A stretch of 12,956 bases of DNA from a virus (IMGVR_UViG_2778261122_000005:1-12956), one strand, 5' to 3'; numbered from the stretch's first letter, positions 9,184 through 12,473 are shown. Made by a program: numbers and translations. Notes: generated by a model from the letters alone, not told the origin.

Positions 9184-11310
9184 TTAATCTTCTTCGCTTT
9201 CTGGCTGGAACATCAGCACGTAAAAAACATGCTGCTTCCCCCCAATTTTGCCGAGCGCCTTTTTCTTGTAACGGCGATCGTTACCCGCTTCCAGCATTCC
9301 GGCAGCACTCAACGCGCGGGCAAAATGAGACGGATTAAATCCCTGTGCTATCTCACCCTCAAATACATGCGGGAACGTGTAAAAACGGAACTCGTCATCT
9401 TCGTTTCTGATACTCCCCTTTCTGTATCCGGCAAGCTCTTTAATCGGTAAATCACGCTCGTCAGAGTTGGGCCAGGGAAGGTATCTGCTGAATCCGAACG
9501 ACGCTAAAAAAGCCTCTGCCTGTTCAACCATCTGTTTAAACTCCCTGTTCCCCGTACCGAACTCCTTCACCCAGGCATTAAAATTATGCTGTATGGCATC
9601 GCGGCATTCCTGTACACCCCAGCCAGTAATATGACCGGACAACACTAACGCCGCCTCAAGCATGGCAAATCGCTCCCCCACACGGTGAACCTGTTCGCCG
9701 TAGCTCTCCGGTATCAGGTTGCGCCACCGTTCACGGCATGCCCTTACCGTGTCCTTTGCCTCCTGCTGATGGTCTGCCAGCCATTTAACCCATTCACGCC
9801 CCGCCGCCCCGTGATTTTCTGTCCAGGCATCCTTTAACGCGTCTGCGTGCGCCTTTCCGGTGCTGTATTCGTGAAATTGCGTGGCTTTTTCCATCGGCAC
9901 GTTAAGCAGGCGGACAAGCTGCCCCGCTTTGACTTTTATCCCCTCCGTTTTGAGGAATGTTTCAACGTCCATTTCTCCGGTACTGATTGCCACCGTTCGC
10001 CAGTGTTTGATCTCCCTGTTGCCGCCGTCCTTTGCCCCCTGTAATTTCCCGGAACCGTTAAACAGCGTATAGGCTGACGTGGACACCTCCCGCGCGTTTC
10101 CGGCCTGGCCTATTTCATCCAGGGGTAAAAGCCCGTCATTGTGTGCCTCTGCTTCGTTGGCGATACCTAACGCTGTGCCGTACCAGGTCAGCCGTTGTGC
10201 GTCCGGCTCTCCCCATAAACTGGATGCGATGTTCTGTGTGGTGGTTTTCCCTGCCGATGACTGTTCGAAAAGATGTACCCCGAAGCCGTCAGCACCCACC
10301 AGCCCGATTAATGGTGCGGATAACGATACCGCCACACCCAGCATCATGGACGGATTACCACCAGCCAGTCGCGCCACACTGTCGCGCCAGCCCTCCGCCG
10401 TTCCTGCCACGGAATAACCATTAACGGCAGCCGTTTTTCCGGTAAACAGGATCGGTTTTTCAGACTCACCAATGACTGAACCGTCCGGCATGATGTACGC
10501 GCCAAAATGCCAGCCCGTTGTTGTGCTTAACTGCCATTCCTCATGGCTTCCGCTTAACTGCATCCAGTCAGCCAGGATAGCCCTGTATTTGCCGTTGGTT
10601 GTCACGTTCAGGCCGTGGTCTTTCAGTAACCGCCAGCCGTCACGGTCGCCAATGCCACCGCACGGAACCGCCATTGTGATGACTTCATGATTTGCGAATT
10701 TTTTCCAGCGCATCACGCGGTAATGCTCTTTACCGATTGTTCCCGTTCCCAGTAGTTCAAGCGGGGAACATAACCACGTCTCAGGCCGGATAATTTCGCC
10801 TGACTGCTTGTCAACTTTGGGCGTTACCCAGAAAACACCATCGGCGCGACTTTCAACGCGGGGCTTTAATTCATCATCGCCCTGGCTTTCTGTGATTTTT
10901 TTCTTTAAGGGCAACACCAGACTTTCCCCGCGCTCGTATTCGTCTTTGAGGCGAGGCAACTGGTCGGATAAATCCGCCGGGCTGGTGTCAGTTATCCCCG
11001 CGTATTCGTATACGGTCTTCACGCCAGCCACAGCCAGCAACGTGACGATCTGTGTGAGGCTACGTTCAGTGATGTGCCCTGCGCGGTAAATACGCACACA
11101 CTGACGGCTATCATCAATAATTTGATAACCGGTAATATCTTTCAGGTGTTCATCTGACAGAACGACAGGTGGCACATTGTCGGCGGCAATATGCTTACCT
11201 GCCCATTCCTGCCACTCTTTCGCATGGCTCCACGCATCACTACCTGCAAAGATGATTACCTCCGTCATTTTGTCGGCTGGCTGGTGCTTTAAGTTTGGTG
11301 CGCGCTTCAT
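9184..11310 (-). CDS. Replication initiator: primase/helicase-type protein (P4 alpha-like / DUF927-like NTPase)
   Basis: 708-aa protein with a Walker A P-loop (SSAGKTT) in the central region. Large replication protein directly upstream of an iteron origin. Start ATG at 11310 forms an ATGA overlap with the upstream gene. Confidence 0.7.
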   Translation of the reverse strand: MKRAPNLKHQPADKMTEVIIFAGSDAWSHAKEWQEWAGKHIAADNVPPVVLSDEHLKDITGYQIIDDSRQCVRIYRAGHITERSLTQIVTLLAVAGVKTVYEYAGITDTSPADLSDQLPRLKDEYERGESLVLPLKKKITESQGDDELKPRVESRADGVFWVTPKVDKQSGEIIRPETWLCSPLELLGTGTIGKEHYRVMRWKKFANHEVITMAVPCGGIGDRDGWRLLKDHGLNVTTNGKYRAILADWMQLSGSHEEWQLSTTTGWHFGAYIMPDGSVIGESEKPILFTGKTAAVNGYSVAGTAEGWRDSVARLAGGNPSMMLGVAVSLSAPLIGLVGADGFGVHLFEQSSAGKTTTQNIASSLWGEPDAQRLTWYGTALGIANEAEAHNDGLLPLDEIGQAGNAREVSTSAYTLFNGSGKLQGAKDGGNREIKHWRTVAISTGEMDVETFLKTEGIKVKAGQLVRLLNVPMEKATQFHEYSTGKAHADALKDAWTENHGAAGREWVKWLADHQQEAKDTVRACRERWRNLIPESYGEQVHRVGERFAMLEAALVLSGHITGWGVQECRDAIQHNFNAWVKEFGTGNREFKQMVEQAEAFLASFGFSRYLPWPNSDERDLPIKELAGYRKGSIRNEDDEFRFYTFPHVFEGEIAQGFNPSHFARALSAAGMLEAGNDRRYKKKALGKIGGKQHVFYVLMFQPESEED

Positions 11311-11621
11311 TTTGCCTTTCCCCGTTCACGAATAATTTCACGTACTGCCTTAATGCGTTCCATTCCTGTAACGCGCATGATTCTGTCGATGTCGCTTAAT
11401 TCTGCTGGTGGTGCTTTGCTTACCTGGGTGAACTCCCTTTCAAAGCGCATATGCGACGACACGCAGGGATGCGCATAACCTTCGCGGATATAGGTCACGC
11501 GAAAATCATCGACGGTTTTAATCGTTATCGTGCTGCCGTATTTATCCTGGAAAATATCGCCGGGGCGGATTTCAGGCCGAGCGGAGCCGCTGGCAGTAAA
11601 GCCAGAATTTTTCTTTTTCAT
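11307..11621 (-). CDS. Hypothetical protein (104 aa), translationally coupled to the primase
   Basis: ATG at 11621, stop overlapping the primase start. Basic termini. No family recognised. Confidence 0.5.
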   Translation of the reverse strand: MKKKNSGFTASGSARPEIRPGDIFQDKYGSTITIKTVDDFRVTYIREGYAHPCVSSHMRFEREFTQVSKAPPAELSDIDRIMRVTGMERIKAVREIIRERGKAK

Positions 11622-11627
11622 GTTTTT

Positions 11628-11846
11628 TTACTCCGGAGGCAGCTTTTTAGCGGCGAGCTCAATATCAGATGTCAGAGAAACCTGTGTATTTGCCAGGTCT
11701 AACAACAAAGAAATAAGAATTTCCTCTCTGCTATCGGATTTATCGGTGCTAAGGCTGTTCATCCACATATTGACGACTTCCCTGATTTTTTTCGCAGAGT
11801 GCAGGGCTTCAAATGCCAGGTCTTCAATATCATGTTTATTTCGCAT
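11628..11846 (-). CDS. Hypothetical small protein (72 aa; may extend to a TTG at 11912)
   Basis: Internal ATG at 11846 preceded by a G-rich Shine-Dalgarno-like sequence. The track ORF starts at TTG 11912. Operon context only. Confidence 0.4.
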   Translation of the reverse strand: MRNKHDIEDLAFEALHSAKKIREVVNMWMNSLSTDKSDSREEILISLLLDLANTQVSLTSDIELAAKKLPPE

Positions 11847-12048
11847 AATCGCCCCCGCGTAACTGGTCTGCACTAACACCCGATTTAGTGAGCATTTCAG
11901 AAAATCCCGCAAGAGTGCTGATAAACTCGTTTTCCATTAAACGGCACTGGCATTTAACCCGGCCTTTTTCCAGATACACCAGTACGCGCCCTGTATAATC
12001 TGACGGCACATTCAGCACTACAGGTAAGTGCGCTTCATGATTATTCAT
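11836..12048 (-). CDS. Hypothetical small protein (70 aa)
   Basis: ATG at 12048 preceded by GGGGGTGG Shine-Dalgarno. Overlaps neighbours at both ends in operon fashion. No family recognised. Confidence 0.45.
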   Translation of the reverse strand: MNNHEAHLPVVLNVPSDYTGRVLVYLEKGRVKCQCRLMENEFISTLAGFSEMLTKSGVSADQLRGGDYAK

Positions 12049-12277
12049 GGCTCACCACCCCCATATCAGCCATGATAATTTTGCTGGCCTCATTCAGCGC
12101 CGTATCAGCACTAAATTGCATGACAGCCAGTGAGTGAGGAACGAAAGCCCCGGCATATTCTGTTTCGCTGGTGGCGTGCTTATGCGCCTTGTCTGCGATA
12201 ACAGAAATATCAATCAGCGCGTGCATCAGCGTTTTGATGGCTTCGGCGGCTGCGTCCGGACGGGTGTTATTGCACAT
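12041..12277 (-). CDS. Hypothetical small protein (78 aa)
   Basis: ATG at 12277; 8-nt overlap with the downstream gene. No family recognised. Confidence 0.45.
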   Translation of the reverse strand: MCNNTRPDAAAEAIKTLMHALIDISVIADKAHKHATSETEYAGAFVPHSLAVMQFSADTALNEASKIIMADMGVVSHE

Positions 12278-12473
12278 GGCGCACCCCCTGACGAATACGG
12301 GCGGCGAATACCATCACACAGCCAGCCGGGGATTGCTGGCGTGCTTCCTGTTCGCTGGTGGCCTCGATGGTAATCACGCGCGGTTGTGCCGTGCTCAGGG
12401 CGATAAAACGCCAGATATATTTATTCAGGTTGTGCGAGTCCCGCCCTTGCGGGTGTGTGGTATGATTTAACAT
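12267..12473 (-). CDS. Hypothetical small protein (68 aa), first gene of the early operon
   Basis: C-terminal portion of the 229-aa track ORF, started at the internal ATG 12473, which has a GAGGT Shine-Dalgarno. The upstream part of the long ORF is rejected (see rejected list). Confidence 0.35.
   Translation of the reverse strand: MLNHTTHPQGRDSHNLNKYIWRFIALSTAQPRVITIEATSEQEARQQSPAGCVMVFAARIRQGVRHVQ

What the first reader, a model, noticed from the sequence alone, without database searches (positions are those of the whole stretch)
11307..12473. Early operon of five tiny overlapping ORFs of unknown function upstream of the primase
Five consecutive small genes (68, 78, 70, about 72 and 104 aa) with short overlaps lead into the primase from a divergent promoter. 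None shows a helix-turn-helix or other motif I can recognise. In satellites this position encodes helper-sensing, derepression and helper-interference functions, which are often lineage-specific and poorly characterised.
Basis: inference. Interest (0 to 1): 0.5.

Follow-up and report, generated by a model that had tools for sequence, protein, structure and literature searches.

The report
P4-style early operon of a satellite
The five small genes are real and form the front of a phage satellite's replication operon, laid out like that of the classic satellite P4: a small Kil/Icd-type gene first, three swappable accessory genes in the middle, and a conserved gene joined to the primase last. The control region upstream also seems to encode an antisense RNA that no database describes.

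Summary
Five SD-preceded genes lie on the minus strand (68, 78, 70, 72 and 104 aa). They are joined by 11-, 8- and 11-nt overlaps, then a 6-nt gap, then an ATGA overlap into a DUF927 primase. RefSeq calls the same five genes in relatives, and all show purifying selection (pN/pS 0.30-0.66).

They are not all motif-free. Gene 1 belongs to the Icd/Kil family (NF033153, the family of P4 Kil). Gene 5 is DUF4222, modelled as a Tudor/SH3-like barrel plus helices, and is always ATGA-coupled to whichever primase follows. Genes 2-4 are three cassettes from a pool of at least 10 small-gene families, shuffled between islands at a stereotyped junction (CAGGRGGTGnnnCATG).

The layout copies the P4 left operon (alpA, eta/kil, epsilon, orf151, orf106, alpha). 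The 68-aa gene is nested in a 229-codon frame that starts 10 nt after alpA in a close relative.

The P4 C4/CI immunity RNA is absent. In its place are a strong promoter with type-specific operators, a divergent ribbon-helix-helix gene, and a candidate ~80-nt cis-antisense RNA over the gene-1 ribosome-binding site. That RNA has a conserved TGnTATGAT promoter and a covarying terminator.

The functions of genes 2-4 remain unknown. The regulatory model is inferred.

The parts
12267..12473 (-). Gene A: 68-aa Icd/Kil-family protein, first gene of the operon
12267..12956 (-). Eta-like long frame: 229 codons in frame with gene A, open to the window edge, running antisense through the RHH gene and through the promoter
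   Evidence: ORF list. In 55 distinct contexts the Icd frame is open for a median of 276 codons upstream. Between -600 and -90 it has 0.78 stops, against 8.8 and 11.5 in the other two frames. All spacing classes between the RHH ATG and the Icd ATG equal 1 mod 3, except one class whose long frame is broken. In L004 the ATG that corresponds to 12956 lies 10 nt after the alpA stop, behind SD AGGGGAG. No Pfam domain in the upstream part.
12041..12277 (-). Gene B: 78-aa accessory cassette of unknown function
   Evidence: phrog_5146 2e-37. 231 homologues; all named ones among the 120 listed are Escherichia. Present in 43 of 85 loci. pN/pS 0.57. Natural B-D, B-f5 and A-B fusions exist. No Pfam, NCBIfam, PDB or PADLOC hit.
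11836..12048 (-). Gene C: 70-aa accessory cassette of unknown function
   Evidence: phrog_340 9e-20. Present in 11 of 85 loci, with related families f13 and f11. pN/pS 0.40. Homologues at 39-44% identity lie in the early-left operon of Salmonella phage Fels-1 and in Klebsiella and E. coli phage records. Only 22 representatives at 50% clustering, at least two of them spurious.
11628..11846 (-). Gene D: 72-aa accessory cassette of unknown function
   Evidence: ATG at 11846 behind a GGGGG SD. Weak match to phrog_2196, 1e-4. Present in 39 of 85 loci, with related families f25 and f29. pN/pS 0.66. PGAP calls the same 72-aa CDS.
11307..11621 (-). Gene E: 104-aa DUF4222 protein, ATGA-coupled to the primase
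9184..11310 (-). DUF927 primase/helicase: the downstream gene that the operon leads into
   Evidence: PF06048 1.3e-46. phrog_1139 'DNA primase' 1.7e-174.
12585..12613 (-). Predicted sigma-70 promoter of the operon: TTGACA-17-AATAAT
   Evidence: 11 of 12 consensus matches. Equivalent TTGAC(A/G)-17 promoters occur in three other regulatory types. Prediction only.
12554..12622 (.). Operator candidates: perfect inverted 10-mers ACCAATGACA at 12554-12563 and 12613-12622, flanking the promoter
   Evidence: Repeat search and pattern search: 0 of 200 shuffles reach the observed count of matches with up to one mismatch. Other island types carry different 9-mers, each paired with a different RHH protein.
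12607..12783 (+). Divergent 58-aa ribbon-helix-helix gene (YlcI/YnfO-like): candidate repressor
   Evidence: RHH_1 at E 0.02 and NikR/YlcI_YnfO N-terminal matches, all below cutoff. PGAP labels the gene at this position 'YlcI/YnfO family' in L001-L003. About a dozen RHH types co-vary with the operator repeats.
12510..12552 (+). Intrinsic terminator that reads on the plus strand, antisense to the gene-A leader: a 14-pair hairpin and a T-rich tail
   Evidence: Flagged by the terminator scan. More stable on the plus strand in 30 of 32 variants, -20.6 against -15.9 kcal/mol. 93.4% of cells paired, 8 pairs changed on both sides, 0 of 500 shuffles reach the score, 32-50% paired when slid. 53 G-U cells on the plus strand against 9 on the mRNA strand; 5.5 T in the next 10 nt against 1.0.
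12458..12466 (+). Candidate extended -10 promoter (TGgTATGAT) of the antisense RNA, inside codons 3-6 of gene A
   Evidence: TGnTAT(G/A)AT is kept in all 67 distinct sequences. The only changes are at 'n' and G to A, which moves towards TATAAT. Codons 1-26 of A show almost no third-position variation. No transcript data.
12473..12552 (+). Candidate cis-antisense RNA of about 80 nt covering the start codon, the SD and the leader of gene A
   Evidence: Inferred from the promoter and terminator above. Leader positions -44 to -1 are nearly invariant apart from the hairpin loop. No Rfam family matches on either strand.
12482..12498 (.). Invariant 5-bp hairpin CGATA-N7-TATCG abutting the SD of gene A; only the loop varies
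   Evidence: helix 1: 5 pairs, never vary.

Best explanation
The five ORFs are genuine, translationally coupled genes. They form the promoter-proximal part of the replication operon of a capsid-forming PICI-type satellite, and the operon is laid out like the left operon of satellite P4 (alpA/vis, eta/kil, epsilon, orf151, orf106, alpha primase).

Shown:
- Gene A is a Kil/Icd-family protein, nested at the 3' end of a long in-frame ORF that begins just after alpA in a close relative.
- Genes B, C and D are three members of a pool of at least 10 small-gene families. These occur in different numbers (1-6) and orders between A and E in related islands.
- The cassettes are joined by one stereotyped junction, CAGG(G/A)GGTGnnnCATG, with an 8- or 11-nt overlap. 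It supplies the SD, the start and the upstream stop.
- Gene E (DUF4222, a Tudor/SH3-like barrel plus helices) is the constant last gene and is ATGA-coupled to whichever primase type follows.

Inferred:
- A arrests or kills the host cell when expressed, as P1 Icd and P4 Kil do.
- E is an accessory partner of the primase-helicase.
- B, C and D are lineage-specific host- or helper-directed accessory proteins.

Inferred control:
1. In the resting island, the divergent RHH protein binds type-specific operators around a strong promoter.
2. A constitutive cis-antisense RNA of about 80 nt masks the SD and AUG of gene A. Untranslated leaky transcripts would then be prone to Rho termination.
3. After the helper induces alpA, transcripts coming from upstream are translated through the long eta-like frame into A. 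This translation overrides the antisense and Rho block and carries expression on to the primase, as shown for P4 eta.
For: Gene reality:
- ORFs, SDs and overlaps.
- Identical PGAP gene calls in relatives.
- pN/pS 0.30-0.66.
- PHROG hits for all five.

Families:
- NF033153 for A and for P4 Kil.
- PF13973 for E.

P4 parallel:
- P4 gene order and 8-nt overlaps.
- P4 regulation as summarised in PMC10111431.
- AlpA lies 10 nt upstream of the long ORF in L004.
- Stop depletion of the Icd frame: median 276 open codons; 0.78 stops against 8.8 and 11.5.
- RHH-to-Icd spacing classes all equal 1 mod 3.

Cassettes:
- Architectures across 85 loci.
- Junction consensus and ATGA coupling of E to four primase types.
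- Natural fusions.

Gene E fold.

Switch:
- Promoter.
- Inverted 10-mers.
- About a dozen RHH types, each with its own repeats.

Antisense RNA:
- Strand-specific stability of the hairpin.
- Covariation.
- G-U asymmetry and T-rich tail.
- TGnTAT(G/A)AT kept in all 67 distinct sequences.
- Near-invariant third positions in codons 1-26.

A similarly arranged operon (an Icd-like gene, small overlapping genes and a primase) was reported to cause growth arrest when triggered by a phage protein, with the Icd-like protein as the likely effector (10.1101/2023.04.06.535777).
Against: - There are no expression data of any kind. Both promoters and the antisense transcript are predictions.
- alpA lies outside the window. 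It is seen only in relatives.
- The window's RHH protein is below the Pfam and NCBIfam cutoffs. Its binding to the repeats is inferred from co-variation alone.
- In some relatives (for example L001) the long frame has no early ATG. Translation of the whole frame is therefore not assured.
- The long frame has no recognisable domain.
- Toxicity of A is extrapolated from P1 Icd and P4 Kil. Its fold matches nothing informative.
- B, C and D have no functional clue at all.
- pN/pS of 0.57-0.66 for B, D and E is only moderately below 1. Part of this may come from saturation between subfamilies.
Confidence: 0.6

Rival explanations
1. One reading: the small genes, at least B-D, are helper-sensing, helper-derepressing or helper-interfering proteins, like P4 epsilon.
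For: They occupy the same position as P4 epsilon, the 'helper derepression protein', between kil and the primase. Cassette content is hypervariable between islands and distribution is narrow, as expected for arms-race genes. C-like genes lie in the early-left accessory operon of Fels-1.
Against: HMMs of B-E do not match P4 epsilon, orf151 or orf106. The prototype cf-PICI did not reduce helper titre or plating (10.1101/2022.09.08.507074). Induction of Gram-negative PICIs is attributed to alpA activation by the helper (same paper), not to a derepressor encoded by the island.
Confidence: 0.25
2. The operon, or the part from A with its small neighbours through to the primase, acts mainly as an abortive-infection or superinfection-exclusion module. 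An incoming phage protein would trigger Icd-like-mediated growth arrest.
For: Silas et al. found that a prophage-encoded ECOR61 locus causes programmed cell death when phage orf24 is expressed. The locus comprises a 121-aa Icd-like gene, two small overlapping genes and further genes including a primase, six in all. Removing the Icd-like gene abolished the effect. A P4 satellite (alpA, Icd-like, hypothetical, primase) responded to Abc1.
Against: No PADLOC model matches any of the five. Growth arrest may simply be a by-product of satellite induction.
Confidence: 0.2
3. The conserved hairpin upstream of gene A works on the mRNA strand, as a P4 CI / P1 C4-like immunity RNA or an attenuator. It would not be the terminator of an antisense RNA.
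For: In P4 and P1 the immunity RNA lies at this position on the sense strand. PMC10111431 reports C4 and isrK hits in some PICIs. The hairpin also folds on the sense strand, at a mean of -15.9 kcal/mol.
Against: No C4, isrK or c4-a1b1 hit in the window at E up to 1, nor in the leader at E up to 10, although P4 scores 74.9 bits. The hairpin is more stable on the antisense strand in 30 of 32 variants. G-U cells number 53 against 9, and the T-rich tail is on the antisense side only.
Confidence: 0.1
4. Some or all of the five ORFs are chance reading frames or decayed remnants in a defective island.
For: They are very small. B-D have no curated family. Frameshift fusions at the G-run junctions are common.
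Against: The frames are conserved across divergent copies with pN/pS below 1. Every start has an SD and stop-start coupling. PGAP gene calls agree independently. The island carries an apparently intact packaging and replication gene set.
Confidence: 0.04

Closest known systems
Satellite phage P4 left operon (vis/alpA, eta/kil with CI RNA, epsilon, orf151, orf106, alpha primase)
   Same: Same order and logic: an AlpA-family gene, then a long frame whose 3' end is a Kil/Icd-family gene of about 65 aa (same NCBIfam model). A promoter lies inside that frame. Several small genes with 8-nt overlaps follow, then the primase. The nested long frame is preserved.
   Different: No C4/CI RNA or seqA/isrK element. 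Instead there is a divergent RHH gene with operators and a candidate cis-antisense RNA. The upstream part of the long frame has no Phage_ASH domain. B-E are unrelated to epsilon, orf151 and orf106. The primase is DUF927, not P4 alpha. The island encodes its own capsid and packaging genes.
Phage P1 immI operon (c4 antisense RNA, icd, ant)
   Same: An Icd-family small protein is the first translated gene. By established knowledge of P1 immI, its translation is controlled by an RNA complementary to its ribosome-binding region and is coupled to downstream genes.
   Different: In P1 the regulator RNA is encoded on the sense strand upstream and acts in trans after processing. Here the RNA would be transcribed from the opposite strand. 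There is no ant gene downstream.
Phage P22 immI (mnt, Pant, arc, sar RNA, ant)
   Same: The logic is similar (from established knowledge of P22, not tested here): ribbon-helix-helix repressors at a divergent promoter, plus a small cis-antisense RNA that starts inside the first regulated gene and covers its ribosome-binding site.
   Different: No sequence relationship was tested or seen. The controlled gene is a Kil/Icd homologue leading a replication operon, not an antirepressor.
Capsid-forming PICIs (EcCIEDL933) and helper-embedded PICIs
   Same: The window carries capsid, protease, portal, connector, HNH, TerS and TerL next to a primase/SSB module. Relatives have integrase and alpA. One relative sits inside a prophage terL. 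The published zone order is integration, Bro/immunity, replication, late (PMC10111431).
   Different: In the passages I read, the published descriptions do not characterise the small genes upstream of the primase and mention only C4/isrK-type immunity RNAs. O157:H7 genomes share only part of gene B at the DNA level; I did not check whether that match lies in their cf-PICI.
ECOR61 prophage programmed-cell-death locus (Silas et al., bioRxiv 10.1101/2023.04.06.535777)
   Same: An Icd-like gene, followed by small overlapping hypothetical genes, in a six-gene unit that includes a primase.
   Different: That Icd-like CDS is annotated at 121 aa, and only two small genes (about 61 and 63 aa) were hit in the screen. 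Homology of those small genes to B-D was not testable here.

Membership tests
[quoted passage not shown] | Sequence match to the family model above its curated cutoff | tested here: met
   69.8 bits, E 1.5e-19, cutoff 25, residues 19-62. P4 Kil scores 76.1 bits on the same model.
[quoted passage not shown] | Expression inhibits cell division or kills the host | not testable with these tools
   Needs expression in E. coli. The predicted fold (beta-beta-alpha-beta) has no informative structural neighbour.
P4-type kil/eta nested-gene leader | The short gene shares its frame and stop with a long ORF that starts upstream of the internal promoter, next to an alpA homologue | tested here: met
   229-codon frame in the window. 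Median 276 open codons across 55 contexts. The ATG lies 10 nt after the alpA stop in L004.
P4-type kil/eta nested-gene leader | C4/CI-family immunity RNA and its seqA/isrK-type target in the leader | tested here: not met
   No RF01695, RF01394 or RF03163 hit in the window or in the leader at E up to 10. The same search finds all three in P4.
P4-type kil/eta nested-gene leader | Translation of the long frame prevents Rho-dependent termination | not testable with these tools
   Only indirect evidence: stop depletion and spacing in multiples of three.
DUF4222 (Pfam PF13973) | Sequence match above the gathering threshold | tested here: met
   66.1 bits against 27, residues 16-67. All 106 homologues carry PF13973.
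Capsid-forming PICI | The island carries its own capsid, protease, portal, head-completion, HNH and terminase genes next to a primase module | tested here: met
   ORFs in the window, with matching RefSeq products in L001.
Capsid-forming PICI | Integrase and alpA at one end; alpA-dependent induction by a helper; use of helper tails only | tested here: inconclusive
   int and alpA lie beyond the window edge. They are present in relatives. Induction and tail dependence are experimental.
Ribbon-helix-helix repressor/operator switch (Arc/MetJ/CopG type) | RHH fold of the divergent protein | tested here: inconclusive
   RHH_1 at E 0.02 (15.3 bits against 20.5). YlcI_YnfO_N at 17.2 bits against 30. 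PGAP names the gene at this position 'YlcI/YnfO family' in L001-L003.
Ribbon-helix-helix repressor/operator switch (Arc/MetJ/CopG type) | Repeated operator sites at the regulated promoter that match the protein's specificity | tested here: met
   Perfect inverted 10-mers flank the promoter. About a dozen RHH sequence types each have a different repeated 9-mer. Binding itself was not tested.
Cis-encoded antisense sRNA (sar/SymR/CopA-like class) | Intrinsic terminator that functions on the strand opposite the target mRNA | tested here: met
   strand-specific stability, covariation, 53 against 9 G-U cells, and a T-rich tail on that strand only.
Cis-encoded antisense sRNA (sar/SymR/CopA-like class) | Own promoter, and a detectable transcript overlapping the target ribosome-binding site | tested here: inconclusive
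   TGnTAT(G/A)AT is kept in all 67 distinct sequences, about 80 nt upstream of the terminator's end. There are no transcript data and no Rfam family.
Type I toxin-antitoxin | Small hydrophobic membrane-active toxin | tested here: not met
   Gene A is predicted to be a soluble beta-beta-alpha-beta domain with a polar, disordered N-terminus.
Known anti-phage defence systems (PADLOC-DB) | Match to any defence-system protein model | tested here: not met
   No hit at E up to 0.1 for A-E, the RHH protein or two neighbouring ORFs.

The most novel reading that the evidence does not exclude
This lineage of Escherichia satellites may have replaced the P4/P1-type C4/CI immunity RNA with a three-layer switch that no database describes:
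1. A ribbon-helix-helix repressor with island-type-specific operators.
2. A new cis-antisense sRNA of about 80 nt, whose promoter is embedded in the first codons of the Kil/Icd gene and whose terminator covaries.
3. A 'translated-only-to-be-translated' eta-like frame that runs antisense through the repressor gene and is kept open by selection. On this reading, alpA-driven transcripts would escape the antisense and Rho block.

Downstream, the small genes would form a cassette array exchanged through a shared 17-nt SD/start-stop linker. That would make it a hotspot for host- or helper-directed accessory genes.
Probability: 0.35. Interest if true: 0.65.

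Novelty: new variant of a known kind. Interest (0 to 1): 0.45.

Why it matters
- It ties an unannotated gene string, present in part in about 30% of complete E. coli genomes (1,611 of 5,426), to the best-studied satellite regulatory circuit, P4 kil/eta. This gives three of the five 'hypothetical' positions a testable role.
- It suggests that PICI-type satellites control a toxic host-arrest gene and their replication operon through interchangeable immunity devices: an RNA in P4, and an RHH protein plus a cis-antisense RNA here.
- The stereotyped junction offers a simple way to find and catalogue accessory cassettes in satellites. Such cassettes are candidates for anti-defence, helper-manipulation or abortive-infection functions.
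- The stop-free frame running antisense through a repressor gene is a clear, testable case of selection for translation itself rather than for a protein product.

Tried and rejected
- Rfam on the whole window and, more permissively, on the leader: no C4, isrK or other credible family. The idea that a C4/CI RNA sits upstream of gene A was rejected.
- Folding the leader as sense RNA: z-score only -1.1.
- Phage DNA search with the region: no match.
- Exact-pattern scan of viral contigs for the leader: none.
- Genome-contig scan with the Icd alignment: only one locus, because the patterns were too specific.
- PDB sequence searches for all five proteins: nothing meaningful.
- PADLOC: nothing.
- HMMs of the cassette families against P4 epsilon, orf151 and orf106: nothing.
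- Pfam on the long frames of the window, L015 and L003: no domain beyond the Icd part, so they are not recognisable Bro/ASH proteins.
- Exhaustive HMMER search with C: a small family. The two long multi-hit proteins are repeat artefacts.
- tblastn of B against phage records: none.
- The PHROG label 'transcriptional repressor' for gene A was rejected. It derives from the obsolete P4 'cI ORF137' annotation.
- The 100-aa start for gene A (MYTNDT..., used by PGAP in L004) is less likely than the 68-aa start. Only the ATG at 12473 and its SD are conserved in all 85 loci.
- Forti et al. 1999 could not be read. P4 regulation is cited through PMC10111431.

Full report
**1. Observation.** The minus strand between 12473 and 11307 carries five consecutive ORFs.

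| Gene | Coordinates | Length | Note |
|---|---|---|---|
| A | 12473..12267 | 68 aa | SD GAGG 5 nt before the ATG |
| B | 12277..12041 | 78 aa | |
| C | 12048..11836 | 70 aa | |
| D | 11846..11628 | 72 aa | from the ATG; 94 aa from an upstream TTG |
| E | 11621..11307 | 104 aa | |

The junctions are overlaps of 11, 8 and 11 nt, then a 6-nt gap, then an ATGA overlap with the 708-aa DUF927 primase (9184..11310). G-rich SDs precede the starts of B, C and D, and GGAG precedes E.

NCBI's pipeline annotates the same five CDS in E. coli chromosomes that carry near-identical copies (L001, L002, L003). I fetched 80 metagenomic loci with gene A and called the gene chains in them. Every family keeps its frame, and pN/pS is 0.30 (A), 0.57 (B), 0.40 (C), 0.66 (D) and 0.61 (E). 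The genes are real.

**2. What the element is.** The window also encodes TerL, TerS, HNH, head-tail connector, head closure, portal, prohead protease, major capsid, PerC and SSB (products as annotated in L001). Relatives add integrase and one or two AlpA-family genes, and some also a Bro-N gene, beyond the window's right edge. This is the gene content of a capsid-forming PICI (10.1101/2022.09.08.507074). In L001 the island sits inside a prophage terL, the helper-embedded configuration described in PMC10111431.

**3. Identity of the five genes.**

[quoted passage not shown] I extracted P4 Kil (65 aa, the 3' end of the old 'cI ORF137' annotation) from NC_001609. It matches the same model at 1.6e-21. 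The PHROG label 'transcriptional repressor' for A is inherited from that obsolete P4 annotation. The AF2 model of A has a disordered N-terminus (residues 1-18) and a beta-beta-alpha-beta core with pLDDT about 80. It has no informative structural neighbour.
- **Genes B, C and D** have no Pfam, NCBIfam, PDB or PADLOC match but do match PHROG families of unknown function.
  - B's named homologues are all Escherichia (231 homologues, 120 listed).
  - C has distant relatives (39-44% identity) among the small overlapping genes of the early-left operon of Salmonella phage Fels-1, and in Klebsiella and E. coli phage records. Its family has only 22 representatives at 50% clustering, and at least two of those are spurious.

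**4. Cassette architecture.** Across the 85 loci the layout is constant at its ends and variable in the middle: A, then 1 to 6 small genes, then E, then a primase.

- The middle genes come from at least 10 families: B in 43 loci, D in 39, f5 in 24, f6 in 19, C in 11, f10 in 11, f11 in 10, plus f13, a second Icd-like gene (f15) and others.
- The order differs between islands. L003, for example, has A, C-like, B, D, E.
- The window's exact order with this primase occurs in only 2 of the 85 loci (the window itself and L001); two more carry A-B-C-D-E before a different primase.
- The primase after E belongs to at least four families, yet the E-primase junction is always ATGA.
- Almost all junctions before the gap that precedes E share one sequence, CAGG(G/A)GGTGnnnCATG, followed by the upstream stop 5-8 nt later. 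As a result, unrelated upstream proteins all end in ...Q(G/E)VxH(A/V)(Q).
- I read this linker as a translational-coupling signal and also as the likely site of cassette exchange. The second point is inference.
- Single-base changes in its G-runs explain the natural B-D, B-f5, f10-B and A-B fusions.

**5. Comparison with P4.** The P4 left operon is vis (AlpA family), eta/kil with the CI RNA, epsilon (helper derepression), orf151, orf106, then alpha primase, with 8-nt overlaps between the first genes. The window has the same plan. However, HMMs of B-E do not match epsilon, orf151 or orf106.

P4 regulation is summarised in PMC10111431, citing Forti et al. 1999, which I could not open:
- A constitutive promoter inside eta gives transcripts that terminate early through CI/seqA RNA pairing.
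- Kil is the truncated, toxic form of Eta.
- Full-length Eta is translated only from an upstream late promoter, coupled to the alpA homologue.
- That translation prevents termination.

**6. The nested long frame.** The frame of gene A is open to the window edge (229 codons).

- In 55 distinct upstream contexts it stays open for a median of 276 codons.
- Between -600 and -90 it contains 0.78 stops on average (no stop in 43 of 59 distinct contexts), against 8.8 and 11.5 in the other two frames. This holds even though the stretch contains the promoter and runs antisense through one or two annotated plus-strand genes.
- Its translation is Cys/Ser/Arg-rich and has no recognisable domain.
- The distance from the RHH start to the gene-A start falls into spacing classes 133 (computed from the window coordinates; the caller's in-frame upstream ATG gives 76), 136, 193, 196, 199 and 205 nt, all equal to 1 mod 3. 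The one class at 197 nt belongs to loci where the frame is broken.
- In L004, which matches the window's right end at 98.5%, the ATG that corresponds to window 12956 lies 10 nt after the stop of an AlpA-family gene (PF05930, 2e-16) behind SD AGGGGAG.

This is the P4 eta/kil arrangement. The selection appears to act on keeping the frame open rather than on the protein sequence. Its function is inferred. One weakness is that some relatives, such as L001, have no early ATG in the frame.

**7. The switch differs from P4.** Rfam finds C4 (74.9 bits), isrK and c4-a1b1 in P4. It finds none of them in the window, nor in the leader at E up to 10. Three other elements stand in that position.

- **(a) Promoter and candidate repressor.** A near-consensus promoter, TTGACA-17-AATAAT (12613..12585, minus strand), is flanked by perfect inverted 10-mers ACCAATGACA. 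It lies back to back with a 58-aa ribbon-helix-helix gene (12607..12783; sub-threshold RHH and YlcI/YnfO matches). Other island types have the same promoter geometry but different 9-mer repeats (GTGTAAGAC, GTGGCTGAC, GTGCGCACA and others). Each goes with a different RHH N-terminal sequence, giving about a dozen types. I take the RHH protein to be the operator-binding repressor. This is inference from co-variation.
- **(b) A covarying hairpin.** A hairpin of about 33 nt at 12510-12542 changes sequence between islands while keeping its pairing.
  - It is more stable on the plus strand in 30 of 32 variants (-20.6 against -15.9 kcal/mol).
  - On a 28-sequence alignment, 93.4% of cells pair and 8 pairs change on both sides. 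None of 500 shuffles reaches the covariation score, and slid controls pair at only 32-50%.
  - G-U cells number 53 on the plus strand against 9 on the mRNA strand. The next 10 nt hold 5.5 T on the plus strand against 1.0 on the other.
  - It is therefore an intrinsic terminator for transcription antisense to the gene-A leader. No plus-strand gene lies upstream of it.
- **(c) A candidate antisense promoter.** About 45 nt upstream of the hairpin on that strand, inside codons 3-6 of gene A, lies TGgTATGAT (12458-12466). TGnTAT(G/A)AT is kept in all 67 distinct sequences. The only changes are at 'n' and G to A, which moves towards TATAAT. The leader (-44 to -1) and codons 1-26 of A are nearly invariant, third positions included, whereas codons 27-61 vary at third positions. 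Residues 1-18 of A are predicted to be disordered.

Together these point to an RNA of about 80 nt (about 12473 to 12552, plus strand) complementary to the start codon, the SD, an invariant RBS-adjacent hairpin (12482-12498) and the C-rich linker CUAACCACCAAC of the A mRNA. The terminator is well supported. The promoter and the transcript are predictions. Read-through of this terminator could also feed the RHH gene, which is speculation.

**8. Proposed mechanism.** Shown:
- Gene order, coupling signals and family memberships of A and E.
- Cassette variability and the shared junction.
- Preservation of the long frame.
- Operator/RHH co-variation.
- The strand on which the terminator functions.

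Inferred:
- In the resting island, RHH represses the internal promoter. The antisense RNA blocks translation of A on leaky transcripts, which would then be exposed to Rho.
- On helper-triggered alpA expression, upstream transcripts are translated through the long frame into A. This overrides the block and delivers B-E and the primase.
- A arrests host division. E assists the primase. B-D act on host or helper.

An experimentally studied locus of similar layout supports a role for the Icd-like product in growth arrest. In the ECOR61 locus, and in a P4 prophage in ECOR15, growth arrest is triggered by phage proteins (10.1101/2023.04.06.535777). Homology of the small genes there could not be checked.

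**9. Novelty and verdict.** The operon type, the Icd/Kil gene and DUF4222 are known, and RefSeq already lists these genes (three as 'hypothetical'). As first described, the finding is an ordinary member of a known kind.

Three things go beyond what I could find in Rfam, the protein-family libraries or the papers read:
- The replacement of the C4/CI RNA by an RHH/operator switch plus a candidate cis-antisense RNA.
- The stop-free frame running antisense through the repressor gene.
- The shared 17-nt cassette junction.

I rate it a new variant of a known kind, with interest 0.45. Confidence is about 0.85 for the operon identity and architecture, and about 0.4-0.5 for the regulatory model.

Noticed in passing
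window 35-169 (-): Sub-threshold TPP riboswitch match (RF00059, 36.8 bits against a gathering score of 54.3, with a 43-nt insertion) in the low-GC left flank (1-700). This is probably chromosomal flank next to the island's attachment site.
   Followed up: no
window 12547-12572 and 12604-12629: A 26-nt inverted repeat (81% complementary) contains both divergent start codons (MYTNDT... on the minus strand, MSTNDN... on the plus strand) and the two operator 10-mers. The -10 hexamers of the two divergent promoters overlap (12585-12592). This suggests mutually exclusive RNA polymerase binding.
   Followed up: partly
window 12920-12939 (+): Strong GC hairpin followed by a T-run after the RHH gene, which looks like its terminator. 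Its reverse complement translates as the conserved 'KTKATGGGRQW' stretch seen in the long frames of several related islands.
   Followed up: partly
L001 1-20068 (E. coli strain 10, NZ_CP048330.1): The related island is inserted inside the large-terminase gene of a lambdoid prophage, with split terL fragments on both sides. This is the helper-embedded PICI configuration. Other relatives sit next to ilvL (L003) or rcnR (L004).
   Followed up: partly
L005 3760-4200 (Escherichia ruysiae): Behind the same covarying hairpin sits a protein whose N-terminal half looks, by eye, like a second Icd-like domain ahead of the conserved one, with a different RBS-adjacent hairpin (CGTTA-N7-TAACG). The hairpin module therefore combines with more than one leader type.
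   Followed up: no
L039, L079, L081 (family f15); L066: Some islands carry a second, longer Icd-like gene (153 aa; NF033153 2.4e-13) directly after gene A.
   Followed up: partly
window 12041-12291 and 12275-12552: DNA-level mosaicism. Of 5,426 complete E. coli genomes, 1,611 match some part of the region, mostly the gene-A core plus 40-80 nt of leader. Only 5 match at least 80% of it.
   Followed up: yes
window 7422-7895 (+) and 7931-8218 (-): Two further genes of unknown function lie between the capsid gene and PerC. One is a 157-aa plus-strand ORF with no family hit. The other is a 95-aa ORF matching phrog_1957. In relatives this slot holds other genes, for example a ProQ/FinO-family gene in L003.
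   Followed up: no
PHROG phrog_6196 / phrog_1743; P4 NC_001609 8168-8584: The PHROG functional label 'transcriptional repressor' for Icd/Kil-like proteins appears to come from the obsolete P4 'cI gene product (AA 1-137)' CDS. The real P4 immunity factor is the C4-family RNA encoded inside that ORF.
   Followed up: yes
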